Shown here: in pieces, positions 8,414 through 59,578 of the stretch
Layout: each line of letters starts with the position of its first letter
Numbering within the stretch: position 1 is the stretch's first letter
Origin: Terriglobia bacterium
GTDB taxonomy: Bacteria > Acidobacteriota > Terriglobia > 20CM-2-55-15
NCBI GenBank assembly: GCA_963664115.2
Contig: CAXWPJ010000005.1
Location: 1-64,000, forward strand
Direction: 5' to 3'
DNA length: 64,000 nt
Made by a program: the position numbers and the translations under genes
Notes under the pieces: model-generated
What the model was told of the DNA's origin: nothing
What the model saw: only the letters and a program-made list of their open reading frames with translations
The model's database searches: none

Positions 8414-8453
8414 CTAGTTTGAAGAACTGAATGAGCGCGTGCCGGTTCCCTGA
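8414..8453 (+). repeat. Orphan kinase 3' tail (FEELNERVPVP*)
   Basis: CTAGTTTGAAGAACTGAATGAGCGCGTGCCGGTTCCCTGA matches the last 40 nt of the kinase 8574-11282. Confidence 0.85.
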
Positions 8454-8462
8454 TTTTGAAGG

Positions 8463-8501
8463 TCGAGTCCTGAGAAATCATCTTCTCGGACCTTGAGAAT
8501 T
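8463..8501 (+). repeat. Putative recombination site (pseudo-palindrome, ATCATC spacer)
   Basis: TCGAGTCCTGAGAA-ATCATC-TTCTCGGACCTTGAGAATT; starts 9 nt after the tail stop codon. Confidence 0.8.
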
Positions 8502-8573
8502 CATTGCCTGCTGTCCCACTCCTTCTATAGACTGCCCCCAGCCTTCTAAACACTGTTCTAGCAGCCCGTAATT

Positions 8574-11282
8574 ATGGAATCAGGCACGAAACTTGCGCAC
8601 TACGAAATTCTGTCCCCGCTTGGTAAAGGCGGCATGGGAGAAGTGTGGCGTGCGAAGGATACAAAGCTCGGTCGTGAAGTCGCCATCAAGACGTTGCCTG
8701 AAGAGTTCGCACAGGATGCGGATCGTCTAGCACGGTTCGAGCGTGAAGCTAAACTCTTAGCGTCGCTGAATCACCCAAACATTGCAGCCATTCACGGTTT
8801 TGAAGAAGACAACGGAACACACTTCCTTGTCATGGAGCTTGTTGAAGGCGACACGCTTGCTGATCGGTTGAAACGTGGTGCGATACCTGTAGAGGACTCC
8901 CTCAAACTAGCCCTCCAGATTACTGAAGCGTTGGAAGCTGCGCACGAAAAAGGCGTCATCCATAGAGACCTGAAACCAGCCAACATCAAAGTCACGCCCG
9001 ACGGGAAAGTGAAGGTGTTGGACTTTGGTCTCGCTAAGGCGTTTGCGGGAGATGAATCCGATGTCAGCGTGTCGAATTCACCCACGCTGAGCATGGCTGC
9101 GACCCAGCAAGGAATCATATTGGGTACAGCGGCATATATGTCGCCCGAACAGGCACGGGGCGAGACGACGGACAATCGTGCCGACATCTGGGCGTTTGGT
9201 TGCGTGTTGTTTGAGACGCTCACTGGGGAAAAGACGTGGACCGGGCGGACTGTCACGGACGTGATTGCGGCGTTGGTCGCCCGTGAGCCTGAATGGAAAC
9301 GTCTGCCTCCAAACCTGCATCCACGCATTCGGTTTCTTCTGGAACGCTGCTTAGAGAAAGAGTCCAAAGACCGACACCACGGCATTGACGAAGCGCGTTT
9401 GGAGATTCAGAAGGCCGTGGCTGAACCGGGTGTCGCATTGACGCAGCCCGTCGCGGGGCTTGCTCAACCGAGACCGCAGTCGAAACTACCGTCGGTTGCT
9501 GTATTCGCTGTGGGATTGGTAATCGCTGGTGTTGCCGTCTGGAACTTGAAGCCATCCGACCCACGTCCTGTCAGCCGATCAGAATATGTACTTCCAGAAG
9601 TCCGCAACTTTAGACAAACGGCGCGACCAGTCCTTACATTTTCTTCTGATGGCAGCAGATTCGTCTACAACGCAACGGGGGGGCTGTATTTGCGCTCTAT
9701 TGACGAACTAGAGTCCAGGGTCATTTCCGGAACGGAGGCCACGCTCGACAATCCGACTTTCTCGCCTGACGGTGAATGGTTAGCTTACTGGTCTGTAACG
9801 GACACTCAACTGAAGAAGATTGCCACTGTTGGCGGTGCCCCAGTGTCGTTAGCCGAGATTGCGGTCAGACCCTCTGGCATTAGTTGGGATGTGGATGATG
9901 CGATCTTGTACGGCGGGTCAGAAGGGATCATGCGTGTGTCTGCGAACGGGGGAGAGCCAGAACTGCTCATTCCGAATTTGGATGAAGGGCCCATTGTTGT
10001 GTATCCACACCTTCTACCCGATGGAAATGCCGTCCTTTTCGGGATCGCCGCTGGGCAGGTTGGGGTGCAATCACTCGATTCAGAAGAACCGCAGTTATTG
10101 TTCCCAGGAGAGCACCCTCGATATGTTTCCACAGGGCATATCATCTATTTCCAAGGGGGTGCGCTTTTCGCCCTTCCGTTTGACCTAGGGGCGCTGGAGG
10201 TAACGGGTGGGCCAGTTCCCCTAGTCGAAGGGGTTCGGGGGGGACCGCCGCAATATGCAGTGTCCGAATCGGGATCGCTTATCTACGTCCCAGGGGCAGG
10301 ATCAGACGCTGTTGCCAATGCGGTTCTTGCATGGGTGGATCGAAACGGAGCGCGGGAACCACTCCCCGTCCCGCCACGGCCTTATCGCCAACCGCAAATA
10401 TCGCCCGACGGGACGCGCCTGGCGGTTGAAGCCGTCGACGCCAGTGGCGACAGCGACATCTGGGTTTACGATCTCGACGGTAGCACGCAGATGAGACAAA
10501 TGACGGGAGAAGGGAACAACAGTCATCCCATCTGGACTCCTGATGGTGAACGATTGACGTTTGCCTCGGATCGGGACGGCCAGGTAAGAATCTACTGGCA
10601 ACTGGCCGACCTCAGTGGCGTCGCGGAGCCGCTGACCGAGCCCGAAGAAGGGCTGGAGCCAAGGCCGGACTCATGGGCCACCGATGGTCAGACTCTTGCG
10701 TTCACAAGGGGATCATCAATTGCCAGCGAGGGCGTATGGATATTTTCCCTCGATGATGGTGCCGTCACGGAAGTTTTCGCGGGGGGGAGCGTTCATCCTG
10801 GTTATTCTAATGCTGGTAGTCCTGCTTTTTCGCCGGACGGGCGATGGCTGGTGTATCGCAGGAACGTGGACGGCGAAGGCGGACAACTCTTTATGGAGCC
10901 GTTTCCAACCACGGGGACCGAATTCAGACTGACCCAGGACGGCGGGTCCGCTCCCATGTGGTCCCGTGACGGGCGGGAACTCTTCTACCGGCGGAATGCT
11001 CAGACGATTGCTGGGCTTGCAGCAGGAGCGCGGTCCCCGAACTTAATGGCTGTGGACATCTCACTCGAAGGCACACCGGAGTGGGGCAACCAGCGCGTCC
11101 TGCCGATTGAGAGTTTCCTGGTCTTCCAGGGTTCTGTGGACTACGACATCACTCCTAACGGCGAGCGATTCATCATGGTCTTCCCCTCAGACCAGACCGA
11201 ATCCGGCGAACCTGCCCGCCCCCGAATCAACATCGCCCTGAACTGGTTTGAAGAACTGAAGGAACGGGTGCCGGTGCCTTAA
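8574..11282 (+). CDS. Hanks-type Ser/Thr protein kinase with TM helix and TolB-like (PD40) beta-propellers
   Basis: [28 protein letters not shown]; repeated SPDG blades; ends NWFEELKERVPVP. Confidence 0.95.
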   Translation: MESGTKLAHYEILSPLGKGGMGEVWRAKDTKLGREVAIKTLPEEFAQDADRLARFEREAKLLASLNHPNIAAIHGFEEDNGTHFLVMELVEGDTLADRLKRGAIPVEDSLKLALQITEALEAAHEKGVIHRDLKPANIKVTPDGKVKVLDFGLAKAFAGDESDVSVSNSPTLSMAATQQGIILGTAAYMSPEQARGETTDNRADIWAFGCVLFETLTGEKTWTGRTVTDVIAALVAREPEWKRLPPNLHPRIRFLLERCLEKESKDRHHGIDEARLEIQKAVAEPGVALTQPVAGLAQPRPQSKLPSVAVFAVGLVIAGVAVWNLKPSDPRPVSRSEYVLPEVRNFRQTARPVLTFSSDGSRFVYNATGGLYLRSIDELESRVISGTEATLDNPTFSPDGEWLAYWSVTDTQLKKIATVGGAPVSLAEIAVRPSGISWDVDDAILYGGSEGIMRVSANGGEPELLIPNLDEGPIVVYPHLLPDGNAVLFGIAAGQVGVQSLDSEEPQLLFPGEHPRYVSTGHIIYFQGGALFALPFDLGALEVTGGPVPLVEGVRGGPPQYAVSESGSLIYVPGAGSDAVANAVLAWVDRNGAREPLPVPPRPYRQPQISPDGTRLAVEAVDASGDSDIWVYDLDGSTQMRQMTGEGNNSHPIWTPDGERLTFASDRDGQVRIYWQLADLSGVAEPLTEPEEGLEPRPDSWATDGQTLAFTRGSSIASEGVWIFSLDDGAVTEVFAGGSVHPGYSNAGSPAFSPDGRWLVYRRNVDGEGGQLFMEPFPTTGTEFRLTQDGGSAPMWSRDGRELFYRRNAQTIAGLAAGARSPNLMAVDISLEGTPEWGNQRVLPIESFLVFQGSVDYDITPNGERFIMVFPSDQTESGEPARPRINIALNWFEELKERVPVP

Positions 11283-11291
11283 TTTTCGAGT

Positions 11292-11320
11292 TCAAGTCAT
11301 CTTCCCGGACGTTGAGAATT
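11292..11320 (+). repeat. Putative recombination site with 10-bp internal deletion
   Basis: TCAAGTC[CTGAGAAATC missing]ATCTTCCCGGACGTTGAGAATT; 9 nt after the kinase stop. Confidence 0.7.
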
Positions 11321-11569
11321 CCCACCTAGAAATTCCGGACTGAAAAATCGGCGCCCATTCCTGACTAAGGGTCTAGGAGTCCCTTTCGATTTGGGTCCCA
11401 TTAAGGTTTGTTTTCTATGTACAGGGGGTCCTAACCACCTTGTTATGAATTTCGACTTCGCATTTTCGAAGTTAGTGGGACGTTTCTGGCCACGAAAAGG
11501 GGTATATAGCTAGAATTGTCAGAGCTTATGAGTCTCGAGATCGTTCTCTGGCTTTTGGCTTTCGTGTTT

Positions 11570-18820: not shown

Positions 18821-18857
18821 ATTCCAAATCTCCTCCGAGGCATCTCCAAACGCTCTT

Positions 18858-37620: not shown

Positions 37621-37648
37621 AATTCTCAAGGTCCGCGAAGATGATTTC
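37621..37648 (-). repeat. Recombination site, 3' part (split by group II intron; 5' part at 39652-39666)
   Basis: Joining the flanks gives ATTCTCAAGTCCTGA|GAAATCATCTTCGCGGACCTTGAGAATT. Confidence 0.85.
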
Positions 37649-39651: not shown

Positions 39652-39776
39652 TCAGGACTTGAGAATGGATTTCAGGGCACCGGCACCCGTTCCTTCAGTT
39701 CTTCAAACCAGTTAAGGACGATGTTGATTTGGGGAGAGGCCGCTAAGTCCGTTTGGCCTTCAGGTAACGCCACTAG

Positions 39777-44245: not shown

Positions 44246-45061
44246 CAGTTGGACAACCTCAATAACGGGCTGACACGGGCACGACTGATGTTCAAACTCC
44301 GGCGGGATCAGCCAAAACTTTTTGAACGTCCACTCGTGCGTCGGCAATGGCGTGGTATCGATTCTTCGCTTCTTTCTCCAAGCAGCGCTCCAACAACTCG
44401 CCAATCCTTGGATGGAGGTTCGGAGGTAGAGCCGCAAACTCCGGCTGTCTCTCTAGCACCCGAGCCAAGGTGAGGGAAACGTCATCACCTGCAAAGACGG
44501 AATGTCCAGTCAACATCTCAAATAGGACACAACCGAAAGCCCACACATCCGTGCGGTTATCGACTTCTCGCCCTCGTGCTTGCTCCGGCGACATGTACGC
44601 TGCAGTACCCAGAATGATTCCTTCTTGCGTGGCCTGCATACTTAGGGTTGGTGATTTGGAAAGGTTTACATCGGAGTCTCCTGAAAATGCCTTGGCTAAA
44701 CCGAAGTCCAGCACCTTCACTTTGCCGTCGGGAGTCACCTTGATGTTGTCCGGTTTCAGGTCTCGGTGAATGACACCATTTTCGTGTGCTGCTTCGAGAG
44801 CTTCTGCAATTTGCAACGCGAGCTTCAGAGACTCTTCAACTGGAATCGCGCCCTGCTTGATGCGATCGCCCAGGGTGGGGCCTTCGACGAGTTCGAGCAC
44901 AAGGAACCCCGTACCCTCGTGTTCTTCCAGTCCGTAGATTGCTGCGATGTTGGGATGATTGAGAGACGCAAGTAGCTGTGCTTCTCTACGGAAACGAGCT
45001 ACGCGGTCGCCGTCCTGTGCAAATTCCTCGGGCAGCGTTTTGATAGCGACTTCACGACCTA

Positions 45062-46212
45062 GTGTACCCCGCTCGAAGTAATGTAACTAAAATAGCTTTC
45101 CAACGTCCAATAGAGAATGAGGAAAGCACCGACCATTGAATTGGATGACAAGCAGCGGATGGAGTTGGAGCGACTGAGTCGAAGCCGGAGTACATCGGTC
45201 CGGTTGGCGGAACGATCCCGAATTGTATTACTGGCCGCTGAAGGTCGGAACAATTATGAGATCGCCGCCCGCTTGGAGATCACGCGCCAGAAAGCGGGCC
45301 GCTGGCGCAATCGTTTTGTGGAACAGGGCTTGGCTGGGATCGAAAAGGATGCGCCGCGAAGCGGACGGATTCCCACGATCAGTCGCCGGAAGCGAGCCCG
45401 GATCGTCAAGAAGACACTGGAAGAGAAGCCCCCGAACGCGACGCACTGGAGTCGGGCCTCGATGGCGAAGGCCGTTGGCGTGAGCGAGTCCACGGTCGGG
45501 AAAATCTGGCGGGTCCATGGACTGAAGCCTCATCTGTCACGAACCTTCAAACTATCCAACGACAAACGATTCGCCGAAAAGCTGGAGGATGTGGTCGGTC
45601 TGTATCTGAGCCCACCGGAAAACGCCATTGTCTTGTCCTGCGATGAGAAGAGCCAGATGCAGGCCCTGGACCGCACGCAACCCGGGTTACCTCTGAAGAA
45701 GGGGCGGTGTGGCACCATGACCCACGATTACAAACGTAACGGGACAACCACGCTTTTCGCCGCGCTCAACATCCTGGACGGTTCGGTCATCGGAACCTGC
45801 ATGCCAAAGCATCGCCATCAGGAATGGATCCGGTTTCTGAATCAGATCAAACGCGCCATGCCGAAAGATAAGGAGATCCACATTATTTGCGACAACTATG
45901 CGACTCACAAACATCAGAAAGTCGTCAACTGGCTCAAGCGTAACAAGCGTTTTCATGTGCACTTCACGCCAACCAGTGCGTCGTGGCTCAACATGGTCGA
46001 GCGCTTTTTCCGGGATCTGTCCGAGCAACGACTCCGGCGTGGCGTTTTCCGCTCGGTCCCCGAGTTGATCCAGGCCGTGGAGGACTACCTCGCTCGTCAC
46101 AATGAAGACCCGAAACCCTTCATCTGGACTGCAACGGCTTCCGACATCCTTGCTAAAGTCCAGCGCGGCCGGCGAAATCTTGATAAGTTACAGTCTGTTT
46201 AACGGGGACCAC
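45062..46212 (+). mobile_element. IS630-family element (transposase 45117-46202)
   Basis: DEK, DNYATH, SWLNMVE DDE motifs; ends GTGTACCCCG / CGGGGACCAC in a CTAG context. Confidence 0.9.
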
Positions 46213-46260
46213 TAGGGCACCGGCACCCGCTCCTTCAGTTCTTCAAACCGATTCAGGACG
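46212..46260 (-). repeat. Orphan kinase 3' tail (VLNRFEELKERVPVP*)
   Basis: Begins 7 nt after the stop of 46268-47743. Confidence 0.85.
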
Positions 46261-46267: not shown

Positions 46268-47743
46268 CTACTCTCGCCTCAGAATAAAAAGACCGGCACC
46301 TACTCTATCGGACGCATAGAGCAGCCCTAGATGATCGATGGCCACGTCGTTGATCTGGATAACGGTCGGCTGGCCGGGTTGGATGGGGTGGGAGTTCTCA
46401 TTCGGGCTGGGAATGTAATAGCCGACTTCAATCATGTTGTAAGGATCCGAGACATCGACGACCCTTAACCCTGCATTGAAGTAGGGAACGTAAGCGATTT
46501 TATCGTCGAATCTGTTAAGCACTCCATTGATCGTCTCCGCAAATTGATGAGGTCCGAAACGACCTCCCTTCTCGCAGAAACCAGCATCCGGAACCTGCCA
46601 CGTATCCACCGGGTAGGGGACGCCCGTTTCGTCGGCATGCGTCATGTCGAACATGTAGATCTTCGTTCTGACGGGATCGGCACACCCTATATCCGGATTA
46701 GTGGCTTCATCCGCAACCAAGGCATACGCCCTCGGAAAGGAATCTCGCCCGAAGTTGGGGACGTCATCATAGAATATGGGTGCTACAGTGTGGGTTCCTC
46801 TTCCCGGTGGCTCGGTATCGATACGCCAAACCAGCTCAGGATTGGACGGATCCTCGATATCAAAGGAAACGACGTCTCCTCCACCCAAATAGGCTCCGTA
46901 GACCCTGTTGTTCTGTTCGTCCACGATGGGATGGTGCCAGTTGTTCCCATTTGAAGTCTCAGGTTCGCTCGTTCTTTGCCCCGGCAACCAAGCCCGCCCA
47001 ACGAAATCAGGGTTCGCGGGATCGGTGAGATCGAAAATCACTAGATGGTTTCCGTTGCGAAAACCCGGTTCGTTGGCTGCGCTGTAGTACAGGCCAGTCT
47101 CGGGCGACCACCAGCCTTTGTGCACGGACGCTAGCAATCCGCCGCACCCCTGCCCACAGGAATCTTCCGGTGTTCCCGTGATCTCTGCGACCAAGCGAAT
47201 CTGAGACGGATCCGTGTCTCTAGAAGTGATATCGAAGATCTGAAACTTCGCAAACCCCTCTCCCTGGGAATTTCGTATCAGGTAGTCTCTCCCCAGGGGA
47301 TTGGAATCGAAAGCGTAGTCATACACGACTGAAGTCGAGCGGGAGTTGGCGCTGAGAGTATTCGGTATGTGCCAGACCAATTCCGGATTGGCTGGATCGG
47401 AGACGTTCAGTATCGAAGTCCCGTTCCATTCCATTTGGCTGGTGATGGGGTTGAAGCGTTGGGTCTCGTCCCAGGCGTTCTCCGAATGCCCTACGTACAC
47501 CCACTCGCCGTTGGCTTCATCCCCTTTTGCCGTTACCTGGAGCGACTCACGGCCCTGTAAGTCATGGTGACCAACGAACTCGACGTTCTGGGCTTCAGCA
47601 ACATCCTGAGTCGCGGCGGCGTTGGTCAGGGTCGTCGACAGCACCATCAGCGGAAGCGCTGAGCAGACAGCGAAGGATAGTCTTATTATTGCCCGCCGTA
47701 TCAGTCGTTTCATTCCTGCAAGAGTGTTCTGCTTGGTCATCAC
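46268..47743 (-). CDS. Secreted LVIVD-repeat beta-propeller protein
   Basis: Signal peptide; NVEFVGHHDLQGR, ILNVSDPANP, GRFGPH, YFNAGLRVVDVSDPY, DRVGAGLFIL. Confidence 0.82.
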   Translation of the reverse strand: MMTKQNTLAGMKRLIRRAIIRLSFAVCSALPLMVLSTTLTNAAATQDVAEAQNVEFVGHHDLQGRESLQVTAKGDEANGEWVYVGHSENAWDETQRFNPITSQMEWNGTSILNVSDPANPELVWHIPNTLSANSRSTSVVYDYAFDSNPLGRDYLIRNSQGEGFAKFQIFDITSRDTDPSQIRLVAEITGTPEDSCGQGCGGLLASVHKGWWSPETGLYYSAANEPGFRNGNHLVIFDLTDPANPDFVGRAWLPGQRTSEPETSNGNNWHHPIVDEQNNRVYGAYLGGGDVVSFDIEDPSNPELVWRIDTEPPGRGTHTVAPIFYDDVPNFGRDSFPRAYALVADEATNPDIGCADPVRTKIYMFDMTHADETGVPYPVDTWQVPDAGFCEKGGRFGPHQFAETINGVLNRFDDKIAYVPYFNAGLRVVDVSDPYNMIEVGYYIPSPNENSHPIQPGQPTVIQINDVAIDHLGLLYASDRVGAGLFILRRE

Positions 47744-47850: not shown

Positions 47851-47878
47851 ATTCTCAACGTCCGAGAAGATGATTTAT
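47851..47878 (-). repeat. Recombination site, 3' part (split by IS110; 5' part at 49337-49346)
   Basis: Joining the flanks gives TCAAGTCCTG|ATAAATCATCTTCTCGGACGTTGAGAAT. Confidence 0.85.
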
Positions 47879-47993
47879 TGATGGTATGGACTCCTCTTTG
47901 ATGACTGAGTCGGCATCGAAGTGCCAAAGTCATTTTGAGCCTCGCAATAAAGCGGGCGAAACACGTGTACGTGTGAACAAAAAGGAGTCCGAG

Positions 47994-49028
47994 ATGAAGA
48001 ATAGAACGATAGCAGTGGATCTGGCAAAGAATGTTTTTCAAATTGGTGTTTCAGATCGCCCCGGGCATGTAGAGAAAACCTATCGTTTAAGTCGGGCAAA
48101 GTTTCTGGGGTTCTTTGCGAACCAGGAGCTGGCGACCGTGGTGATGGAAGCCTGCGGATCCGCCCATTACTGGGGTCGGAAGATCCGGGAACTGGGACAC
48201 ACGGTCGTTCTGATCTCGCCGCAGTATGTGACGCCCTACGTCAGGCGCAACAAGACCGACCGTACGGATGTGAAAGGATTGTTGGAAGCCTATCGTGACA
48301 GCGATATTCATCCAGTGCCGGTCAAAACCCTGGCCCAACAGCAACTGACCTCATTGCATCGAATCCGTTCGGCGTGGATGCGAACCCGAACCGCACGGAT
48401 CAATACGGTGCGGGGGTTGTTACGGGAGTTTGGCTACGTGATCCCGACCGGAGCGGATCATCTGGTGCCGGGGGTAATGGAGCTGATCGAAGATGCAGAT
48501 GTCGTCATCCCCAGTGTCGTTCGGGAGATGTTTCACCAGGTGTGTGGCGAGATCCGTGAATTGGAATCTCGCATGCGATCGGTGGAACAAGAGTTGAAGA
48601 CGCTGGCTCGGCAGATGCCTGAGGTCGCGCGTCTGACGTCGATTCCCGGCATCGGCCTGTTAACGGCAACGGCAATGGTGGGGTTTGTTGGAAACATCAA
48701 ACGATTCCGAACGTCCCGCCATTTTGCCAGTTATCTGGGACTCACACCCCGGGAACATTCCAGTGGCAACCAGCGACGCATGGGCCGGATCAGTAAGCAA
48801 GGCGATCGTTACCTCCGGATGCTGTTGGTTCATGGGGGCCGTTCCCTGTTGTGGAGTGCCCATCGAGAGGGCGCCACACCGACACCTCTCCAGCAATGGG
48901 GTCTCCAGAAACACGAGTTCCGCGGACACAACAAGGCAATCGTTGCACTGGCCAACAAGTTGGCGCGTCGCGTGTGGGCGGTTTGGAACCGTGACTGTGA
49001 CCATCAGGCCCGGTATCAGGCGGCCTGA
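47994..49028 (+). CDS. IS110-family DEDD transposase
   Basis: AVDLAKNVFQ, MEACG, KTDRTD, IPGIG, GLTPREHSSG, ALANKLAR. Confidence 0.93.
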   Translation: MKNRTIAVDLAKNVFQIGVSDRPGHVEKTYRLSRAKFLGFFANQELATVVMEACGSAHYWGRKIRELGHTVVLISPQYVTPYVRRNKTDRTDVKGLLEAYRDSDIHPVPVKTLAQQQLTSLHRIRSAWMRTRTARINTVRGLLREFGYVIPTGADHLVPGVMELIEDADVVIPSVVREMFHQVCGEIRELESRMRSVEQELKTLARQMPEVARLTSIPGIGLLTATAMVGFVGNIKRFRTSRHFASYLGLTPREHSSGNQRRMGRISKQGDRYLRMLLVHGGRSLLWSAHREGATPTPLQQWGLQKHEFRGHNKAIVALANKLARRVWAVWNRDCDHQARYQAA

Positions 49029-49049
49029 CCCGAAACAGTCGGAATATCT

Positions 49050-49240
49050 TTTCAGCGAGCTGCGATGAGGTTCGAGATGATGGCGTACCGGTCAGACCGG
49101 CGCGGGGCAACGCCGACAAGTCCTTTGGCCCTTAGAGGCCGTTATTTTATCGGTTGGCTCCCCGCGCGCAAATTTCCATCATGGCCTGGAACAATACAGT
49201 TCCACTTTTGAGGCCGAAGATACGGGTGCAGTCGACTAGC
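49050..49240 (+). ncRNA. Putative seekRNA / bridge RNA of the IS1111-type element
   Basis: Downstream non-coding region contains CAAGTCCT and TTTAT (match target flanks) and CCATCA and AGATA (match IS ends). Boundaries approximate. Confidence 0.55.
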
Positions 49241-49355
49241 TACTCACCTCGTAACTTCTAGTCAGTCCTGCTGAATGCATTTTGCCGAAGAAAGCTGACG
49301 GGAGAGCTGCGCCTACTTGACAGAGGAGTCCAGATACAGGACTTGACCTCGAAAA

Positions 49356-49412
49356 TCAGGGCACCGGCACCCGTTCCTTCAGTTCTTCAAACCAGTTCAG
49401 GACGATGTTGAT
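49356..49412 (-). repeat. Orphan kinase 3' tail (INIVLNWFEELKERVPVP*)
   Basis: Followed after 9 nt by the site. Confidence 0.88.
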
Positions 49413-49637
49413 TACTGAAGGTTCAGCTCAAGCAGCGTTCCGCTCTGGTAGAAGGATCCCACCACGCCCAAGCAAGACTGTCCTCCTATGCCAATAAAGA
49501 GAATCAACGGTCGTCTAGCCGCATGCGGAAACAACAGTTCAGCCCTCGTCGTGGCACCCGCCCCGCCAGGGCGATCTTGAAGGACTGCTGTTCCTCCTGT
49601 ATCCAGATCCGCCCGCTGGTGGGAGAAACATCAATTC

Positions 49638-51701
49638 TCAGAAGATCTCCGGTACTGAAAACACCAGAATACCCTGATTGCGCATGTCGGAGACGATCAC
49701 TTCCTGATCTTCCGGGTTCAGAACCACTCCGAAAGGCTTCTTGAGCTGGGTTGTAGGGCCCACAGGGATTTTCCAAATCGGAGGAACATCCCCGTTATCA
49801 TCGTAACTCCAGACGCCTATAAACGCTTCCTCCGGTTCCATTTGATCTTGAATCCCTGGCATCGCGGCAATGATCAGCCTCCGCTGGGGATACATCTGCA
49901 TCTGGTTGATCCGGATAATTTCCGACTTCGGACCGCGGATAACAGCCCGTGGCGCTACGTTTCCTTCGTCCGTCCGGTTAAACACCAGGATTGCGCCTGT
50001 CTCCGAGTCACTTCTCCCTATGCTGGCCCTATAGGTTCCGAAGTTGCTCTGTGTTCCGACGACCAGAAGATCGTTGATCGGATCCACGGCAATCGCATGA
50101 AGTCTCCCCAACCTGGTGTCCGGGCCCTTGATCACTCGAATCGGTGCAACGTCACCGTTGGCTTCGCGCGGATAGACCTTAATACTGTCGTTGGTGTAGG
50201 TGAAAATCTCATCGTGAATGTTGTCCACGTCCAGCCGGTCGCTGATCGGCCCGGTTCTGGGGCCCTGGATAGTGCGAATGGGCGACTCCTGTCCATCGGC
50301 TCCTCCGGCGAACGTCAGTATGGCCTCTCCATAAGGGACAGGTACAACGATTTCATCGTTGACCGCGTCGTAGCGTATGTCATGCATGGTGCGGGACAGC
50401 CTGCTGGCCTGTCCATAGAGTGTTCGGACCGGTGTTTCTCCTCCGTCCGCCAACCTGGCGAACATCGCAATCTGCGGATGCGCCACTCAGTTGGGCACCA
50501 GGATCTGTCCCCGTCTGCTGTCGTAGCCAACGGCTCCGGGATTGCCGATCATGAGGCTCTCCGTCCCTACTGGCGCTCCTCGAATCGTTCTAATGGGTTC
50601 GACATCCCCATTGGCCGTCACCGGGAAAACCGTAACCGAGGGGGTTCCCATGCTCGCCACAAACAACTCGTCCAGTCGTTCATCCAGCGCAATACCAGGA
50701 GGATGTTGGATTCCGGTATTGGGTCCCGCGATGACGCGGATCGGAGCCACATCGCCTTCGGCCGAGGCGTCGAATATCAGTATGGAGCTGTCGGCATCAT
50801 TGGCCACAAACAGTTCCTGCCTTTCATTGTGCAGTGCCATGTGTGAAGGCCAATTCATTAACGTTCGAGGTCCTTCGATAGTCCGAAGAGGTGCCGTATT
50901 TCCTGAAGCGTTCAGGGGATACACGGTGATTGATGGCAGCTCAAAGCTGCCATAGGTTTCACCGGTCTCCGGATTCAGGTTTTGAGCATTGCCGAAATTG
51001 CTCACGTACATGAGATTGTTTGTCGTGTCCAGGGCAATCCCGTGCGGATCTTCCAGTTGCGTATCCGGTCCTTCGAGAGTCCGAAGTGGTTGTTCTTCAC
51101 CTTCGGCCTGCTTGCGGAACACATGCACGTAACCGCTCTGATTCACGACGAACAACTCCTGCCGTACTTCGTCCGCGGCAACGGAGAATCCACGAATGCT
51201 TGCCAGGAACCGATCCGGCGCGACGTTGCCCCGGGCGTCTGTCGAAAAAACCGGCAACCAACGCTGCGTATCATTGTTGAGCACATAGATGTCCAGGGTC
51301 ACCGGGTCAATGTAGACCCCACACATCATTTCGGCTTTTGTGTTGGTTCCCGAAATGACACGTCGGGGTTCTGTGAAACGGGCTTGAGGCGGCGTATCTT
51401 CGCGACTGTCATACTCCAGGATCTGAAACAAATTCTCGTCCGTGACCACCAGCATGTTGTTTTCGGAATTGACGGCCACGGCGCTAAACGCCGGATTCGG
51501 ATCTCGGATGAAACGCAGCGGAGGTCGCTCAATCACCACCGGCGTCCTGTCCTCCTGGCCCTGCACCGCCGTCACGGCCGCAGACGCAACCCCGGCAACG
51601 TCGCCGCTATCGATTAGAACGGCTTGAGCCATCCAGACGATCAATCCCGCTAAGACGAGCTGAAGTCGCCAACCTTTCCCGTCGCGAAAAGTTTTAGCCA
51701 T
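49638..51701 (-). CDS. Secreted NHL-like beta-propeller protein, probable selenoprotein (in-frame TGA 50487-50489)
   Basis: Repeats GxVAPIRxIxG...L..P.GIALD. Two abutting in-frame ORFs; TGA and downstream hairpin conserved in the paralog 53843-56008. Confidence 0.75.
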
Positions 51702-51857
51702 TGCTCAACCTCCAATGGGAGAACCCTTATGTACTTGAATATTGGCGCGATTATCAGAGGACCGATAATCAAAGTCAAGCGTATGGGCGAATGTGAAGAC
51801 TTTTGGCAACAAAGCAGGTGTGGGTATGTGACGATTCCAACGCTTGAGCAAGGGGGC

Positions 51858-51983
51858 TGGCAGGGTCTTGATCGCCACTTTACGCCCGAGCTTCGTGTCA
51901 CGAGCACGCCACACTTCTCCCATACCACCTTTGCCGAGGAGTGTGCCGATCTCGTAGTGGCCCAGTTTGGTGCCAGATTCCAT
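51858..51983 (-). pseudogene. Orphan kinase 5' stub ([12 protein letters not shown]...VAIKTLP)
   Basis: First 42 codons of the kinase family, then unrelated sequence. Confidence 0.85.
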
Positions 51984-52056: not shown

Positions 52057-52097
52057 AATTCTCAAGTCCTGAGAAACGACATTCTCGGACCTTGAGA
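52057..52097 (+). repeat. Recombination site flanking the recombinase (ACGACA spacer)
   Basis: AATTCTCAAGTCCTGAGAA-ACGACA-TTCTCGGACCTTGAGA. Confidence 0.85.
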
Positions 52098-52188
52098 CTT
52101 TGATTGGCAGCTCGACACAGCACGGCCGTATATAAGGCTCTCTAACTCTCTTAAGAATGTGTGGCTTCGCCTATTTTCCGGTGAATGG

Positions 52189-53139
52189 CTATGCGCCTTC
52201 CAGACCCAACCGATCATTTACTGCATGACGCAGTTTCTGTTTGCAGCCCAGGTAGCGTTCCGTCGTCAACACTGAGGAATGACCCAGCAGGAACTGAATC
52301 TGCTCAATCTCGCCCCCGGCCTGGTAGCACAACCGAGCGCAGGTCCGACGCAGATCGTGTGGGGCAAGTTGGCTGATCTCCGATCGCTTTGCAACTTGCT
52401 TGATAATTCGCCAGACGACTTTTCCAGACAGACCGTCACCCCAGACACCTCCATAACGGTTCACTCTGCGAAAAATTCTTCCAGCACTAATTCCGGCCGA
52501 CCGTGTCCAGTTGTCCAATGCAGCTTTGACCCAGTCCGGCATTGGCACGGTTCTAACGCGTCGACCTTTGCCGATAAGATCCGCAATGATCCAGTGGTCT
52601 TCCCGGACCTGCAAATTCTCGACTCGCAGATCTACCAACTCAGATCGTCTTAAACCACATCCGAGGAGTACGGCAACGATCGCGCGATCTCGAAGGCCCC
52701 GGAGGTCGTCAGACTTGAAGCCAGTTAATAAGGTCCGCCCTTGCTCGGCCGTGAGCCAGTTGCCTATGATTCGTCCCTTTGATTTTGCTCCCTTGACATG
52801 CTGGATTCCCGCTGCCAACTCGGGACTCAGGAGTCCGCAATCCGAAGCCTCATGCGCCAAACGGCGAACAGCAGCCAGGTGCACATTGATGGTCGAAGCG
52901 GCGAGGTTTCTTTCCTTCAGATAGGTTTTGTATCGTCGAACAACAGTCCGGTTGAAAGCAAGGCGGGGCTCTGAACAATACCATCGTATGAATTCGTCAA
53001 TTGCTCGTCGATATGATCTTTGTGAACTTTCTGACGCCAGTGAAGCCAAGACCGCGGCCCTGGATTGTTCAAGGTCTGGCAGCTTGAGGGTCGTCTTCAT
53101 CCGTGACTTTTTCCGCTTCTTATCCGTTTCTCTTTTCAT
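52189..53139 (-). CDS. Stand-alone tyrosine recombinase (Xer-like size, no arm-binding domain)
   Basis: GCGLRRSE, GKG, HDLRRT, LGH, TERY catalytic set; GGAGG RBS. Confidence 0.92.
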   Translation of the reverse strand: MKRETDKKRKKSRMKTTLKLPDLEQSRAAVLASLASESSQRSYRRAIDEFIRWYCSEPRLAFNRTVVRRYKTYLKERNLAASTINVHLAAVRRLAHEASDCGLLSPELAAGIQHVKGAKSKGRIIGNWLTAEQGRTLLTGFKSDDLRGLRDRAIVAVLLGCGLRRSELVDLRVENLQVREDHWIIADLIGKGRRVRTVPMPDWVKAALDNWTRSAGISAGRIFRRVNRYGGVWGDGLSGKVVWRIIKQVAKRSEISQLAPHDLRRTCARLCYQAGGEIEQIQFLLGHSSVLTTERYLGCKQKLRHAVNDRLGLEGA

Positions 53140-53229: not shown

Positions 53230-53272
53230 ATTCTCAAGGTCCGAGAATGTCGTTTCTCAGGACTTGAGAATT
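53230..53272 (-). repeat. Recombination site flanking the recombinase (ACGACA spacer), inverted
   Basis: 53232-53272 is the exact reverse complement of 52057-52097. Confidence 0.85.
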
Positions 53273-53346: not shown

Positions 53347-53529
53347 ATGGAATCTGGCACCAAACTCGGTCATTACGAGATCTCAACGCTTTTAGGTAAG
53401 GGTGGAATGGGTGAAGTGTGGCGTGCTCGTGATACCAAGCTCGGGCGCGAAGTTGCGATCAAGACTCTTCCTGCAGAGTTTGCGAAGGATTCAGATCGAC
53501 TCGCCCGGTTTGAACGTGAAGCCAAGCTG
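53347..53529 (+). pseudogene. Orphan kinase 5' stub ([12 protein letters not shown]...FEREAKL)
   Basis: First 61 codons of the kinase family, then unrelated sequence. Confidence 0.85.
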
Positions 53530-53842
53530 CGGATCAGCGGTATAAGCAGTGTCTGACGACTATGGCAGCGCTGTCAGTGTCGTCGTATGGGTGTTATGTC
53601 AATCCGGGTTCAGCGCTTGTACTGCCAGCGCCATGGCATGCCATTGGCTCAGGGTTACCGGTTGCCGCCAGGATGGCAGCGCTACGACCGGACCAAATTT
53701 CAAATATCTTTGCTTAGGTTAGTGGCGAGAGGGGCTAGAAGCCGATGTGTAAGGGGAATAATGAGATCGCCACCCCAGCGATGGGTGCGAACTCATGCCC
53801 CCCTTGATCATTTGGCAGTCAGGCGGGACCGGCCGAAAACTC

Positions 53843-56008
53843 CTAGAACAGCTCCGGCACGTGGAAACTCAACACTGCGTTCTGCTTCATGTCGGACACT
53901 ATGACCGTCTGGTTCTTCGGGTCCAGCGCCATGCCAAAGGGCTTAACGAGTACCTCACCGGGTCCGGCAAAAGTCCAGCGCGGTTCAATGTTGCCATCGT
54001 CTTCGTGGATGTCCCAGACGCCCACATGTGGCGCCTTGTCGTCCGGTCCTCGGATGGCCGCAAAAATCAAACCGCGCGGTGGGAAAACACGAAGCGCTCT
54101 GAGACCTGACAGCTCCGCCTTCGCCCCCCGGATGGACCTGAGGGGCTGCGCATTGCCTTCGGCAGTACGCTCAAAGATGAATATGCCGCGGTTGCCCCCA
54201 GTGACCAGCAGATCGTTGAGGGTATCGACCGCAACCTGCCCCTGGGCTCCCTCCAGAATACGGATCGGCGCCACATTGCCATTCGCCTCCCGCGGGAAGA
54301 CCAGGATTCTACCTGAGTCGGGAACCAGGATTTCGTTGTTAACCGGATCGACCACCATCTTGTCGGGCCGACGCAGCTGAGTCCGGCTGCCTTGAATCAC
54401 TCGCAGTGGAGGCTCTGCTCCATCGGCTCCGCCCCGAAACGTCATGATCGCCTGGGCAAACTGTTGCGGCACCACAACCTCGTCGTTCACCTCATCGTAT
54501 TCGATGCCGTGCATCGTTCGGCCCAGTAGTGTCGACTGTCCTTCGATTCTGCGCATCGGGGCAGCTGCTCCATCCGCCAACCTGGCGAAAGCCGCAATTT
54601 GCGGGTGGGCCACTCAGTTGGGCACTAGAATAGCCTCCCTCTTCGTGTCGTACGCCAGAGCTCCCGGATTGCCGATCATCAAGGCCCTTTGTCCCGCCGG
54701 GGCGCTGCGGATCATGCGAAGGGGGGGAGTGTCACCTTCGGCCCCCAGCTCGAAAACGGTCAGCGAATTATTACCGTAGTTGGCCACCCAGAGCTCTTCG
54801 TTCTTGATGTCCAGAAACAAGCCGACGGGGCTGTCCAGCATCGTTTGTGGCCCCTTCAACACTCGAATTGGCGCCACATCGCCATCCGCGTCGGACGTGA
54901 ACACCAGGATTGATTGCCCGGTGTCGTTGGCAACATACAACTCGCCGCGACGCTCATCCACACCGATACCAGAGGGCCAGTTCAACTGTGTCTTCGGTCC
55001 TACGATGACTCGCACTGGCGGCGCATCGCCGCTGGCGGAGCGCTCGTGGACTGTGATGGCCGGGGGCAAAAATCTCCCCGACCCGGGTACCGCCATGTTG
55101 CGTCCTAACGGTCGAGTCGGCTCCAGGTCATTCGCATCGGCTCCTTCAGCCGATCTGCTGGACACGTGCCCGTGGTTCGTTACATAGATCAGGTCATGCC
55201 CTTTATCGACGGCGATCCCGTGAGGGTTGGCCAGGCGGGTTCGGTCACCTTGCAGCAACCGGATCGGCGGCTCATCCCCTGACGCGAGCTTGCGGAACAC
55301 CACAACTGCGCTGTTGTGCTGGCTGGTCAGGAAGAGCTCCTGATTCTCATCATCCACGGCGATTCCACGCCCTCTGGTCGAATAACCCGTGTTCAGTTGG
55401 CGCGCAGGCGGCACATTCCCTTCCTGATCGCGGGAGAAAACCAGCATTTTAGCGGCGGTATCGGCATGGGTGGCGTAAATGTCTCCCGAGAGCGGATCGA
55501 CATACAGACCGCACACGAACTCAATCTCCGTTTGGTCTCCACCCAAGATCCGCTTTGGTTCAGTCAACGCCGCATTGGGCGGCGTATTCGCCGTTCGGTC
55601 ATACACCAGGATCTGGTGCAGGTTTTCGTCGGCCGCCACCACCTCGTTGCGGTCCGCGTCCACGGAGACGCCGCTAAAGCTGGGACTCGAATCTCGGATA
55701 ACCCGTACGGGATCCCTTCTGAGCCGCACCGTCCGAGATGGTTCCTGCAATGGGAACGCTCGGGCGCCCCCAACTCCCGACATGAGGAGTCCAGCCTGCC
55801 TCTGACCCGCTGCGGCAGCCGAAGCGGTGCTAGCGCTGCCCACCCGCCCTTCCGAAAGCGGTTGATAGCCGTTGAGCCCGGCCTCGTTGCCGGGCTGCCC
55901 CTTCTCTGGGTCCAACGCCGACGAAAGTAGGACCAGGGACAGGCTGACCATCGTGATACCGAGCACCGTCCGTATCAAGGTGCGGTTCGTTTTCGGTGTC
56001 TCAAACAT
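53843..56008 (-). CDS. Secreted NHL-like beta-propeller protein, probable selenoprotein (in-frame TGA 54614-54616)
   Basis: Paralog of 49638-51701 with the same ILVPN*VAHPQIA junction. Confidence 0.75.
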
Positions 56009-56146
56009 GTCTGATTCTCCGTGAATTCATATCCGACCAATTCCTACCGGATCATCCTTGTTGGCCTCGTGCGCCGTAACATAGGCTTCCAGCCTGTGAA
56101 TTCCAAACTTCGGGACGCAGCACTCAACGGTATTATACATTGCCAG

Positions 56147-56938
56147 GGCATTGTCAGGTTATGTCCCCAGCGTGCAGACTGACGGGATGAAGACGCGACG
56201 ATCCCGCTACATCAGGCACCGATTTCCTCCAGAGATTATCAGCCATGCTGTCTGGCTCTACTACCGATTCAGTCTGAGTTTCCGGAATGTCGAGGATCTG
56301 CTCGCTGAGCGCGGCGTGAACGTGACCTACGAATCGATCCGCCAGTGGTCCGTCAAGTTCGGAGCTCAGTATGCGCGTCGATTGAAACGACGCCAGGGGC
56401 GTCTCGGTGACACATGGCACCTGGACGAGGTCTTCGTCACGATTAACGGTGAAAGGCAATATCTCTGGCGTGCCGTGGATCAAGACGGTGATGTGATCGA
56501 TATTTTTGTTACAGCCCCGTCGGGATGGGCGTGCGGCGCGGAGATTCTTTCGGAAGCTGTTAAAGCATCAGGGAAAGGAACCATTCCGTCTCGTGACCGA
56601 CAAGCTGGGCAGCTACCGTGTCGCACATCGCGAACTCACGCCCCTGATCACCCATGATTCCCGCCAATATGCGAACAATTGGGCCGAGGTGTCACACCAG
56701 CCAACGCGACAACGCGAGCGACAAATGCGATGCTTCAAGTCGCCGGATCAGGCTCAGCGCTTCTTGCACGTTCACGGAGTCGTTCAGAATCTCTTTAGAC
56801 TGGCACGACACCGACTCAGGTCGGCTCACTATCGAATGTTGCGCACACGATCCTTCTCGACGTGGGCAGCCGTAACCACAGCGTGAGGTTTGCCTTCCCG
56901 GTCTTTTTCTGCCTTGCGCCAGCTAATTTCACAGTACC
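56147..56938 (+). mobile_element. IS6-family element with frameshifted transposase
   Basis: RHRFPPEII, WHLDE, YLWRAVD, VTDK, NNWAE split over two frames; ends GGCATTGTC / CACAGTACC. Confidence 0.8.
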
Positions 56939-56953
56939 CCCACGAGGGGGAGG

Positions 56954-58012
56954 CTACTGTGACGATTCCAGGAACCAACCCAGCTGTGCCTCGGCGCACT
57001 CACCGACGACGGTCAGATGACGCTGGACGGCTTCTGAGTCAACGAAGGGGTGCGGTTCGCCCGGGTTCCGAAATCGGAGACCGTTGACCTTGGCCAAGGT
57101 ATTGTCATGGTTCGTATGACTGGCCAGAAAGACATCAACGCGGGCCCTTAGTGCGATGTCTCGAAAACGCCGCGCCGAGGCGCTATAGATTGCTAGGCCC
57201 TCTGAACGCTCCGGCCAGTACCGGACCCCCATGGAATTACCTCCCCAGATGCTTCCCAAATGCCAGCGGTCTCCATCCTTGAGTGGAATCAAGGTCGATA
57301 TCGTCCCCGGGGTGTGACCAGGCGTGATATAGAGCGTTACGGTGGTATCACCCAGCGTCAGTTCCATCCCGTCCGTGGCCACCATGTCTTTCCTGGGCTT
57401 CAACTCTGGCGGACTGTTGTCGTTGGCTACGAGATTCCAATCGGCCTCAGACATGATGATGCGCGCTCCGTACCTGTCCTGGAGCGTCTTAGCTCCGTAA
57501 TAGTGGTCGGAATGGCCGTGGGCAATAATGACGTACTTGATGTCGGCCGCATCAAGCCCCATCTGTCGCAGTCCGTCGACGATTTCGTCCTCGACCATAT
57601 AGTCGTAGGCCGTATCGTGGAGAATAATTCCTTCCGAAGTCGTCACCGCCCACATCGCTAGGCCTTGGATGTACGATCCGTCAGCAAGAGTCATCTCATT
57701 GCTACCGATGTAATAAAGGTTGTCGAATATTTTATGTGGCGGTTCGTACCATAGTTCGCGCGGTGGAATCGTTCGGGGGGGCCGCGCAGCCGTCGGCGCC
57801 GCAGGCGGCCGAGCGGACGCATTGATGACGTTTCTAGAGAACTCTCCGCAATTCCTGTCGAATATCCAGGTGAAATCATTTCCAGGTGAGTATGCCGCAG
57901 CCTTGGCTGCGGCCTCATGACTTTCCGGTGTACCGGTCTGCGCGTTCGATTCAGTCGAAATCCAACCGCCTGCAAGCAGGATCGAGAGCACGGACGGCAA
58001 GTAGCGCTTCAT
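56954..58012 (-). CDS. Secreted metallo-beta-lactamase-fold hydrolase (subclass B3-like)
   Basis: PHKIFDNLYYIG, HGHSDH, TPGHTPG; signal peptide. Confidence 0.85.
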   Translation of the reverse strand: MKRYLPSVLSILLAGGWISTESNAQTGTPESHEAAAKAAAYSPGNDFTWIFDRNCGEFSRNVINASARPPAAPTAARPPRTIPPRELWYEPPHKIFDNLYYIGSNEMTLADGSYIQGLAMWAVTTSEGIILHDTAYDYMVEDEIVDGLRQMGLDAADIKYVIIAHGHSDHYYGAKTLQDRYGARIIMSEADWNLVANDNSPPELKPRKDMVATDGMELTLGDTTVTLYITPGHTPGTISTLIPLKDGDRWHLGSIWGGNSMGVRYWPERSEGLAIYSASARRFRDIALRARVDVFLASHTNHDNTLAKVNGLRFRNPGEPHPFVDSEAVQRHLTVVGECAEAQLGWFLESSQ

Positions 58013-58299: not shown

Positions 58300-58343
58300 A
58301 ATTCCCAAGTCCCGATAAATCATCTTCTCGGACGTTGAGAATT
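58300..58343 (+). repeat. Putative recombination site (ATCATC spacer)
   Basis: AATTCCCAAGTCCCGATAA-ATCATC-TTCTCGGACGTTGAGAATT. Confidence 0.85.
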
Positions 58344-58608: not shown

Positions 58609-58668
58609 CCGCCGCTTGATTAGGAATTACCCAACCGGATCGGTTCTGGCCCAGCTTTGGGCCAGCGT

Positions 58669-58869
58669 CTATGGCGTTGGAGGTATAAAAGTGACGCCAT
58701 TTCTTTCAATAAATATTTTCGGAGTCAATGGCGCACCATCCGAACAGTCTGCCCCAGAACTAACAATCACACCTTCACCCACGGTAATCAGAATGCACAC
58801 GGGCATTGAAGGGGCAATCCGCTCCTCCAGATCCTCTATCCGTACATCCAACTCGATGAATTCATCCAT
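58669..58869 (-). CDS. Small peptide with IEDLEERIAP leader-like motif
   Basis: AAGGAG RBS; acidic N-terminus followed by a hydrophobic region with two Cys. Confidence 0.6.
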   Translation of the reverse strand: MDEFIELDVRIEDLEERIAPSMPVCILITVGEGVIVSSGADCSDGAPLTPKIFIERNGVTFIPPTP

Positions 58870-58983
58870 GATCTGCTCCTTGGCGGGAACCCTATCATGG
58901 AGCCATCCAGACGGCTAGGTTTTCGGAAGAGAGTGTCCTAAGTGTCCCCGAACATCCCAGCATTTCCTCCGAATCTTCCCGGG

Positions 58984-59022
58984 TCAAGTCCTGATAAATC
59001 ATCTTCGCGGAAGTTGAGAATT
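58984..59022 (+). repeat. Putative recombination site (ATCATC spacer)
   Basis: TCAAGTCCTGATAA-ATCATC-TTCGCGGAAGTTGAGAATT. Confidence 0.82.
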
Positions 59023-59108
59023 AGTTTTGTTAGCAGATGTAGGTTACTGTCGATTTCTAAACAGATGCAATTAGTCGCCCGCGTTTACACGCGAGCAAGG
59101 AGATCATC

Positions 59109-59396
59109 ATGGCAGTCGGAGTTCAGCTTGATTTCGAGGGCGCAACAATAGAACAATACGACCAGATCTTAGAAAAGATGGGCTTAACCCACCGAGGACC
59201 GGGCGGACCGGGTAGTTTGTTCCATTGGGTGACGAAGACGGAGAACGGCCTGCGTGCCACCGATGTTTGGGAGTCCCGTGAGGTTTTCGAGAAGTTCGCA
59301 GAAGAGAAGATTGGACCGATCTCCCAAGCGGTGGGGGTTCCCGCTGCACCTGTGATCCAGTTCTTCGAGGTTTACAACTACCTCACCGCGGGCTGA
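59109..59396 (+). CDS. Small dimeric alpha+beta barrel (ABM-like) protein
   Basis: T.EQYD...G.LFH...DVWESRE.FEKF pattern; AAGGAG RBS. Confidence 0.7.
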   Translation: MAVGVQLDFEGATIEQYDQILEKMGLTHRGPGGPGSLFHWVTKTENGLRATDVWESREVFEKFAEEKIGPISQAVGVPAAPVIQFFEVYNYLTAG

Positions 59397-59512
59397 GCTG
59401 AAAATGGGATTGGGGGTCGTTACCCGGAGGCTTTAGCCGGGACCCAGATGCGCCAATGTGGTCGGGTGAGCGACTCGTCGCGGGAGTCGCTCTGGACCAG
59501 AACCGGCTGGCC

Positions 59513-59578
59513 CAGCCGCAGATCAACATCGTCCTCAACTGGTTTGAAGAACTGAAGGAACGGGTGCCGGTGCCGTGA
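59513..59578 (+). repeat. Orphan kinase 3' tail (PQINIVLNWFEELKERVPVP*)
   Basis: Matches the other tails. No site follows; IS3 begins 22 nt later. Confidence 0.85.

What the first reader, a model, noticed from the sequence alone, without database searches (positions are those of the whole stretch)
8414..59578. Cargo genes framed by head and tail stubs of one kinase gene, with the site a fixed 9 nt after the stop
Seen: the last 40-65 nt of the kinase (NWFEELKERVPVP*) occur six times. Two belong to kinase genes (11282, 39672) and four are orphans (8414, 46212, 49356, 59513) that follow unrelated genes, two of them within 7-12 nt of the cargo stop. Where a site follows (4 cases), its TCRAGTC starts exactly 9 nt after the stop. 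Two orphan 5' stubs (51858-51983, 53347-53529) open units. Unit 52097 to 49337 reads site, kinase head, cargo, kinase tail, site. Inference: the kinase gene is the ancestral mobile unit, and its interior is replaced by foreign genes while the ends are kept as cis elements. This could be a route to making new cassettes, and might explain expansions of these kinase-propeller paralogs.
Basis: partly seen in the sequence, partly recalled or inferred. Interest (0 to 1): 0.85.

Follow-up and report, generated by a model that had tools for sequence, protein, structure and literature searches.

The report
Kinase-end cassette arrays in Acidobacteria
About a tenth of this acidobacterial genome is made of same-direction arrays of unrelated genes, punctuated by a repeated 38-base palindrome and short leftover ends of one receptor-kinase gene, and those leftover ends likely serve as matching arms through which the genes are swapped between arrays and species, with no dedicated shuffling enzyme found.

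Summary
Observation confirmed and far larger than the window: the genome holds 142 'A' and 26 inverted 'B' copies of a 38-bp palindromic site, 139 kinase tails and 57 heads in clusters spanning 557 kb. 95 of 139 tails have a site or its left arm behind them, 66 at exactly 9 nt (chance 29/5000). Units recur in other arrays and species, never with both neighbours kept; shared array genes are 96% identical to a congener against 88% elsewhere. Exchange points lie inside the stubs: 25 of 30 pairs sharing a cargo have swapped tails (4 expected), 6 of 9 swapped leaders, also across different site families, and not at a fixed point in the site. No array-linked recombinase is common to the genomes. Best reading (0.55): recombination through kinase-end homology shuffles cassettes, which arose from tandem kinase arrays by illegitimate joins; the site is a protein-bound hotspot of unknown partner. 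The stubs are useful but not required (36 of 91 units lack both). The scan noted like arrays on other DNA (e1-6669214, e1-776197, e1-845804); no paper found in 10 searches.

The parts
6358..8401 (+). cargo: NTP-transferase/CDP-alcohol phosphotransferase and HD-domain genes
8413..8453 (+). orphan kinase tail stub, 41 nt, 11 nt after the cargo stop
8463..8500 (+). A site, intact
8501..8573 (+). kinase leader (111-nt junction type)
8574..11282 (+). full-length Ser/Thr kinase with PD40 beta-propeller, 902 aa (founder-type unit)
11292..11319 (+). A site with a 10-nt internal deletion
37622..37648 (-). right part (positions 12-38) of the intron-split A site
37649..39651 (-). group II intron with RT gene, inserted between site positions 11 and 12
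39652..39662 (-). left part (positions 1-11) of the intron-split A site
39672..39776 (-). tail of the IS-broken kinase (aa 867-902)
41499..45062 (-). broken kinase pieces aa 251-860 and aa 32-285, interrupted by IS fragments
46212..46260 (-). orphan tail stub; an IS630-type element begins at its stop, no site follows
46268..47743 (-). cargo: LVIVD-repeat protein; 97-98% copy in a G002 array
47851..47876 (-). right part (positions 13-38) of the IS110-split A site, followed by a kinase-type leader without head
47877..49336 (+). IS110-family element inserted in the A site
49337..49346 (-). left part (positions 1-10) of the IS110-split A site
49356..49457 (-). orphan tail stub (aa 868-902)
49638..51701 (-). 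cargo: two genes (404 aa NHL/lactonase-type propeller; 282 aa without Pfam hit); same head-cargo-tail unit in G004 between other sites
51831..51983 (-). orphan head stub (aa 1-51)
52062..52099 (+). B site, inverted to its unit, 79 nt before the head ATG
52189..53139 (-). tyrosine recombinase gene between two B sites; single copy, not found in G002-G004
53230..53267 (-). B site, 80 nt before the head ATG
53347..53538 (+). orphan head stub (aa 1-64)
53843..58012 (-). cargo on the opposite strand: propeller-type gene pair, transposase-like ORFs, metallo-beta-lactamase-fold gene
58305..58342 (+). A site without tail
58984..59021 (+). A site without tail
59109..59396 (+). cargo: 95-aa ORF without Pfam hit
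59462..59578 (+). orphan tail stub (aa 862-902), no site behind it

Best explanation
The window is part of genus-wide arrays of gene cassettes separated by a repeated junction (kinase tail, 9 nt, palindromic A site, optional inverted B site, leader, kinase head), and cassettes are likely exchanged by homologous recombination that uses these junction pieces as short matching arms. Shown: the arrays, their polarity, units shared among arrays and species, and exchange points spread through tails, heads and site arms. Inferred: (1) the arrays began as tandem receptor-kinase arrays whose ends were homogenised; (2) new cassettes arise when illegitimate joins put a whole foreign gene, with its own flanks and in either orientation, next to whatever length of leader/head and tail survives, possibly one side at a time; (3) once framed, a gene is copied or replaced by RecA-type exchange or gap repair, across species probably by DNA uptake; (4) the palindrome is a double-stranded protein-binding site (operator or recombination hotspot) of unknown partner, which several mobile elements use as a landing site.
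For: Tails swap under a shared cargo: 30 disjoint pairs (of 42; 357 tails from six genomes) differ 3.1% upstream but 15.1% in the last 36 nt (random pairs 24.8%); 25 of 30 have 3 or more mismatches, 4.2 expected; mismatch climbs from 0.05 to 0.44 across the stop. 6 of 9 pairs sharing head plus cargo have a different leader up to the ATG, including swaps between site families (read by eye; 2 differ further upstream, 1 doubtful). The window's propeller unit sits in G004 with the same head junction but other sites. In the site, pairs sharing the upstream unit agree 12/12 at position 9 but 2/12 at 12; pairs sharing the downstream unit agree 13/13 at 35 but 7/13 at 23 and 9/13 at 30; 0 pairs among 258 sites share both flanks. 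Fourfold sites: tail 0.68, head 0.50, rest 0.29-0.39 in 19 full kinases of 46% identity. Tandem kinase arrays without the A site in G013, G021, G047, G048, G159; head stub fused to cargo in G159. Array genes 96.0% (n=59) against 87.8% (n=147) identical G000-G002. Of 589 array families only the kinase is in all six genomes. ComEC in 4 of 5, DprA in 4 of 5 genus genomes. Possible intermediates: LVIVD gene with leader join but no tail in G003; an 84-nt empty head-tail unit.
Against: 36 of 91 units have neither stub, and two site-to-site duplicates start and end at the 38-bp sites, short for RecA (own knowledge: about 25-30 bp is the lower limit). The two arms around a class-specific 6-bp spacer, with symmetric free positions 12 and 23 (p=0.54 for linkage), look like a tyrosine-recombinase core. 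5 of 30 tail pairs have 2 or fewer mismatches and fit exchange at or after the site; partial linkage at positions 24-30 allows a share of spacer crossovers. ComEC was not found in G000 and DprA not in G002 (97% complete); RecT 0 of 5, Ku 1 of 5; RecA was not searched. Pairs are few, kin are not independent, relatives were sampled only around arrays. No donor locus close enough to read junction microhomology was found.
Confidence: 0.55

Rival explanations
1. An integron- or dif-module-like system: a trans-acting tyrosine recombinase excises and inserts cassettes at the A sites (spacer classes giving exclusivity), and homologous recombination and conversion among stubs and arms are secondary and blur the crossover record.
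For: 14-6-14 palindrome with conserved spacer classes; 91 of 93 neighbouring A sites in direct repeat; stub-less duplicates bounded by sites; at least five different element ends split the site (by eye); the right arm matches the host dif XerC arm at 8 of 11 positions (my comparison).
Against: Arm variants are not co-inherited with the adjoining cassette even in 99-100% identical copies; among G000, G002 and G003 only XerC, XerD and prophage-type integrases are shared (30 of the 39 G002/G003 hits had loci to compare); the host has a separate canonical dif; units move between site families.
Confidence: 0.25

Closest known systems
Neisseria dRS3/NIME arrays and minimal mobile elements (PMC1797815, passages read)
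   Same: Abundant short palindromes proposed as hotspots that work together with RecA exchange; targeted by a phage-borne transposase/recombinase; small gene cassettes swapped between conserved flanks in a transformable organism.
   Different: There the arms are syntenic core genes or non-coding RS repeats; here they are multicopy ends of one kinase gene, so a cassette can move among dozens of arrays.
rhs / maf / fha orphan-tip arrays (PMC2935791 abstract; PMC1797815 passages)
   Same: Arrays built by homologous recombination through a short conserved piece of a large gene, leaving gene remnants between variable cargo.
   Different: Orphans are alternative C-termini of the same protein; here cargo is unrelated whole genes, 1 of 108 in frame with the tail.
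Integrons, attC cassette arrays (PMC8876359 passages)
   Same: Polar arrays of one- to few-gene units in direct repeat; sites invaded by group II introns.
   Different: No GTTRRRY core crossover, 38-bp sites, no linked intI/attI, cargo in both orientations with own upstream DNA, no fixed crossover.
Acinetobacter dif/pdif modules (PMC12907356 abstract; PMC9455709 passages)
   Same: Palindromic sites with 6-bp centre, module islands on the chromosome, IS elements that target the sites.
   Different: pdif sites resemble dif and flank modules in inverse orientation; these are direct repeats unlike the host dif.
IS91/ISCR and REP-RAYT systems (recalled; no paper read)
   Same: Palindromic repeats hit by IS110-type elements; rolling-circle elements nearby.
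   Different: RAYT-like genes are not flanked by the site; the Y2 element was not found in one array-rich genome.

Membership tests
Integron | intI next to attI at the head of the array | tested here: not met
   An IntI-like gene at C9:714590 has no site within 2.5 kb and lies outside all clusters.
Integron | attC with RYYYAAC/GTTRRRY core and crossover at G/TT | tested here: not met
   Position 30 is G in 86, A in 53, C in 36 of 179 sites; crossovers are spread.
Integron | site recognised as a folded single strand | tested here: inconclusive
   B site folds (z -4.6, -5.4), two A sites do not (z -1.0 to 0.3); positions 12 and 23 do not covary.
Integron | promoterless cassettes in one orientation | tested here: not met
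   68 tandem and 40 divergent cargo genes at tails; first gene after a site on the same strand in 76 of 114.
dif/pdif modules | sites resemble host dif (XerC and XerD arms) | tested here: not met
   A separate single dif-like site in G000, matched in 5 of 5 relatives; no XerD arm in the array site; 8 of 11 match to the XerC arm only.
dif/pdif modules | inverse orientation of flanking sites | tested here: not met
   91 of 93 neighbouring A sites are direct repeats; only A-B pairs are inverted.
Tyrosine-recombinase core site | two arms around a 6-8 bp spacer with spacer classes | tested here: met
Tyrosine-recombinase core site | crossover confined to the spacer | tested here: not met
   (small n; later conversion not excluded)
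Tyrosine-recombinase core site | cognate enzyme binds and recombines it | not testable with these tools
   needs a binding or recombination assay
Minimal mobile element / homology-arm cassette | variable genes exchanged through conserved flanking homology | tested here: met
Minimal mobile element / homology-arm cassette | one syntenic locus between conserved core genes | tested here: not met
   arms are multicopy; units move among arrays
Minimal mobile element / homology-arm cassette | RecA- and transformation-dependent | tested here: inconclusive
   ComEC 4 of 5, DprA 4 of 5; dependence not testable here
rhs-type orphan arrays | cargo is an in-frame alternative C-terminus | tested here: not met
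   1 of 108 ORFs ends at a tail stop, and it is a kinase remnant
REP/RAYT | RAYT gene flanked by the repeats | tested here: not met
   no site in 3 of 3 relatives' Y1 loci examined, one site 300 nt upstream in G000
IS91/ISCR-driven capture | Y2 element present wherever arrays are and confined to the sites | tested here: not met

The most novel reading that the evidence does not exclude
A recombinase-free counterpart of the integron: the junction of a tandem receptor-kinase array was domesticated into a universal adaptor, so that any gene caught between two junction remnants joins a shared pool shuffled among dozens of arrays and across species, with a protein-bound palindrome as hotspot; half-framed and empty units record how cassettes are born.
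Probability: 0.4. Interest if true: 0.87.

Novelty: new variant of a known kind. Interest (0 to 1): 0.72.

Why it matters
It is a gene-shuffling platform over 557 kb of a 4.9-Mb genome, shared by several species, with hydrolases, oxidoreductases, outer-membrane and secreted-type proteins as cargo. How cassettes first form is hard to see in integrons (own knowledge); here stubs of graded length, empty units and one-sided units leave a readable record. It also gives a testable 38-bp site used by at least five mobile-element types, and a caution that direct-repeat palindrome arrays need not be run by a site-specific recombinase.

Tried and rejected
TCRAGTC as a marker: chance level. Window recombinase as the array enzyme: a very large family (8000 of 8000 scored candidates hit), in 8 of 41 relatives but not G002-G004, and no site by PWM in the 8 other loci. 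XerCD/dif, IntI, RAYT: see membership test. Serine recombinases: present in 5 of 5, their loci were not examined for sites; none is among the array families shared by three or more genomes. Target-site duplication of the site interior: 150 neighbouring pairs match at 0.43/0.52/0.57/0.52 against background 0.35/0.52/0.58/0.45. Structured RNA: no Rfam hit on sites. Sigma-70 promoter in the B leaders: not among the 3 scan hits. Junction microhomology: 33 alignments gave no clean donor. Empty-site test at one solo junction was swamped by a multicopy IS and gave only non-contiguous flanks. Contig laying: joints across sites are unreliable (short sides, repeats); lower contig depth on the B-to-B recombinase segment (4.6 and 5.1 against 17-25 in X1, X8) and on 58316-59301 (8.7, 2.2, 7.9 against about 20, 6, 19) hints at strain variation, but the tool warns depth is no share of cells, so it is not counted as evidence. 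Rows dropped before counts: assembly-overlap duplicates, 24 kinase remnants over 200 nt and 7 tails with an insertion. Paper searches found nothing on these arrays; the habitat word was my guess; subscription papers and all supplements were not seen.
Full report
Observation. The six tails, two heads and the 9-nt spacing are as described. An iterated profile finds 184 copies in the 4.89-Mb assembly and none in 3 of 3 column-shuffled controls; 144 tails and 58 heads were found likewise. They fall into 56 clusters spanning 557 kb. After removing assembly overlaps: 139 tails, 57 heads, 142 A sites, 26 B sites; 69 tails have a full site and 26 a left arm behind them, 66 of these 95 at 9 nt, against 29 of 5000 random positions; 91 of 93 neighbouring A sites point the same way; the 91 site-to-site units have a median of 2.4 kb, 15 with head and tail, 31 tail only, 9 head only, 36 neither. 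Records carrying the same site are titled Terriglobia MAGs, so the host is probably an acidobacterium.

Anatomy. The fullest junction reads tail, stop, 9 nt, A site, about 17 nt, inverted B site, 80 nt, ATG; the 138- and 111-nt forms look like deletions of B (my reading). The protein is a 902-aa Ser/Thr kinase with a PD40 propeller. Of 141 A sites, 24 are followed by a head, 16 by a kinase leader alone, 39 by a 33-290 nt leader shared with other cargo, 23 only match a whole copy and 39 are unique: interior replacement also happens to units that are no longer kinase-like. Cargo is whole genes in both orientations (68 tandem, 40 divergent of 108 classified; 1 overlap over 60 nt; divergent genes keep a median 238 nt upstream), which points to DNA capture, not RNA. 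97 of the 113 families shared between genomes were scanned: hydrolases, oxidoreductases, outer-membrane and propeller proteins, DUF6152, and many transposases. The site is a landing place for a group II intron, an IS110 and at least three more element types.

Mobility. Site-to-site units recur in other arrays of the same genome (C2:264297-265623 = C6:43763-45089, 99.3%; C6:39777-40199 = C10:252898-252476, 95.5%) and in G002 in other orders. The site pattern is in 7 of 41 relatives (128, 85, 38, 10, 1, 1, 1 matches), the tail DNA in 20 of 35 family genomes and 2 of 301 phylum genomes. Array genes shared with G002 are 96.0% identical (n=59) against 87.8% for other genes (n=147) (G002 was sampled around its arrays). 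Contigs of public runs span head-cargo junctions (X2 50604-51977, X8 53397-56252) and reach into the 59578 tail (X4 58319-59545); one of these runs may be the assembly's source.

Where exchanges fall. Among 258 A sites from four genomes no pair shares both flanks. Pairs sharing the upstream unit agree at position 9 (12/12) but not 12 (2/12); pairs sharing the downstream unit agree from 35 on (13/13) but only 7/13 at 23 and 9/13 at 30. A clean exchange at the spacer would keep each arm with its flank. Among 30 disjoint pairs of tails under the same cargo (3.1% mismatch) the tail differs by 15.1%, 25 of 30 by 3 or more bases where 4.2 are expected, and the mismatch rises steadily across the stop. 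Of 9 pairs sharing head and cargo, 6 have a different leader up to the ATG, some from another site family. The window's propeller unit recurs in G004 with the same head junction between different sites. In 19 full kinases (46% identity) fourfold sites agree 0.68 in the tail, 0.50 in the head and 0.29-0.39 elsewhere. So the stubs are where recombination happens. Against this: 5 of 30 tail pairs fit exchange at or after the site, and stub-less units have only 38 bp of homology.

Origin. Genomes of other genera and one other family have tandem full-length kinase arrays with the same tail DNA but no A site, and G159 has a head stub fused to a foreign ORF. G004, G047 and G048 have divergent site forms. 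I infer that kinase tandem arrays came first. Possible intermediates: an 84-nt empty head-tail unit; the LVIVD gene with the leader join but no tail within 1.5 kb in G003 and no stubs in G004; a G007 unit with B site, head, cargo, tail and A site whose cargo has a stub-free 86.6% homologue on G000 C8. None was close enough to read microhomology, so the joining step is inferred.

Enzyme. The window's recombinase is single-copy and not found in G002-G004. G000, G002 and G003 share XerC, XerD and prophage-type integrases only, and a canonical dif exists elsewhere. The Tyr plus Y2 element prefers the sites but was not found in G003 and is untargeted in G001. RAYT-like genes are not flanked by sites. 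Of 589 array families (1075 proteins, sampled arrays of six genomes) only the kinase is in all six. ComEC is in 4 of 5 and DprA in 4 of 5 genus genomes, Ku in 1, RecT in none. Free positions 12 and 23 are symmetric and independent (p=0.54), as for a protein binding double-stranded DNA; its identity is open.

Comparison. It works most like the Neisseria dRS3/NIME and minimal-mobile-element model (PMC1797815, passages) and rhs tip displacement (PMC2935791, abstract), and looks like integrons (PMC8876359, passages) or dif-module islands (PMC12907356, abstract; PMC9455709, passages), but fails defining tests of each. Ten paper searches (listings only) found no description; subscription journals and supplements were not seen. 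Earlier scan notes describe like arrays in another acidobacterial genome (e1-6669214, IS91-driven reading, partly tested and not favoured here), a decay reading (e1-776197) and a kinase-promoter repeat with homologous exchange in another phylum (e1-845804); they are leads, not support.

Verdict. Real, active-looking cassette arrays founded on a kinase gene; homology-arm exchange 0.55, trans-acting tyrosine recombinase 0.25, decay 0.10, IS91-like driver 0.08. New variant of a known kind; interest 0.72.

Noticed in passing
G000 C2:764673, C2:744842, C6:31708, C9:937813, C12:585587, C12:562520: A repeated element of unidentified family is inserted at the same base inside the kinase tail in 6 of 6 copies found; it contributes to the peak of 39-41 nt stubs.
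   Followed up: partly
G000 C1:92965, C1:108556, C2:196490, C3:2990, C12:36231, C12:159079, C12:487026, C12:570146: Tyrosine recombinase plus Y2 transposase elements, most flanked by a short GTT-type core on both sides; they prefer the sites here but not in G001.
   Followed up: partly
window 52002-53327: The recombinase gene lies between 96-nt inverted repeats (95%) that include both B sites and outward-facing leaders, so it could be invertible; contig depth is low there in 2 of 4 runs.
   Followed up: partly
G000 C2:766452; L176:389; L205:7181: Head stubs fused in frame to cargo give it the kinase's first 8-40 residues and its start.
   Followed up: no
L167-L177, L210-L213 (G004, G047, G048): Divergent relatives of the site with other centres (ATCCGG, GTCG-centred) follow tails or precede heads.
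   Followed up: partly
L204-L217 (G159, G047, G048, G013, G021): Tandem arrays of full-length kinase-propeller genes, several with overlapping stop and start; G159 is in another family yet has 5 tails within 3 mismatches of the G000 tail DNA.
   Followed up: partly
window 1-11221: 99.9% duplicate of the end of contig C9 (1282676-1293897): assembly overlap; similar overlaps on C2, C6 and C11.
   Followed up: yes
window 18997-19064 and 63784-63851: 68-nt inverted repeat (91%) overlapping a tRNA at 63809-63881, beside two phage-type integrases and a primase at 12946-19940: likely island ends.
   Followed up: no
window 26649-26766: SAM-I/IV riboswitch match.
   Followed up: no
window 59600-62397: 1308-nt perfect inverted duplication of a two-ORF transposase-like element.
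   Followed up: no
window 33289-33654: Exact 183-nt tandem duplication inside a 225-aa ORF.
   Followed up: no
G000 C2 about 108145: Single canonical dif-like site, matched in 5 of 5 relatives.
   Followed up: yes
arrays of five genomes: DUF6152 small proteins are the commonest non-kinase array family (37 members in five genomes) and metallo-beta-lactamase-fold hydrolases recur.
   Followed up: no
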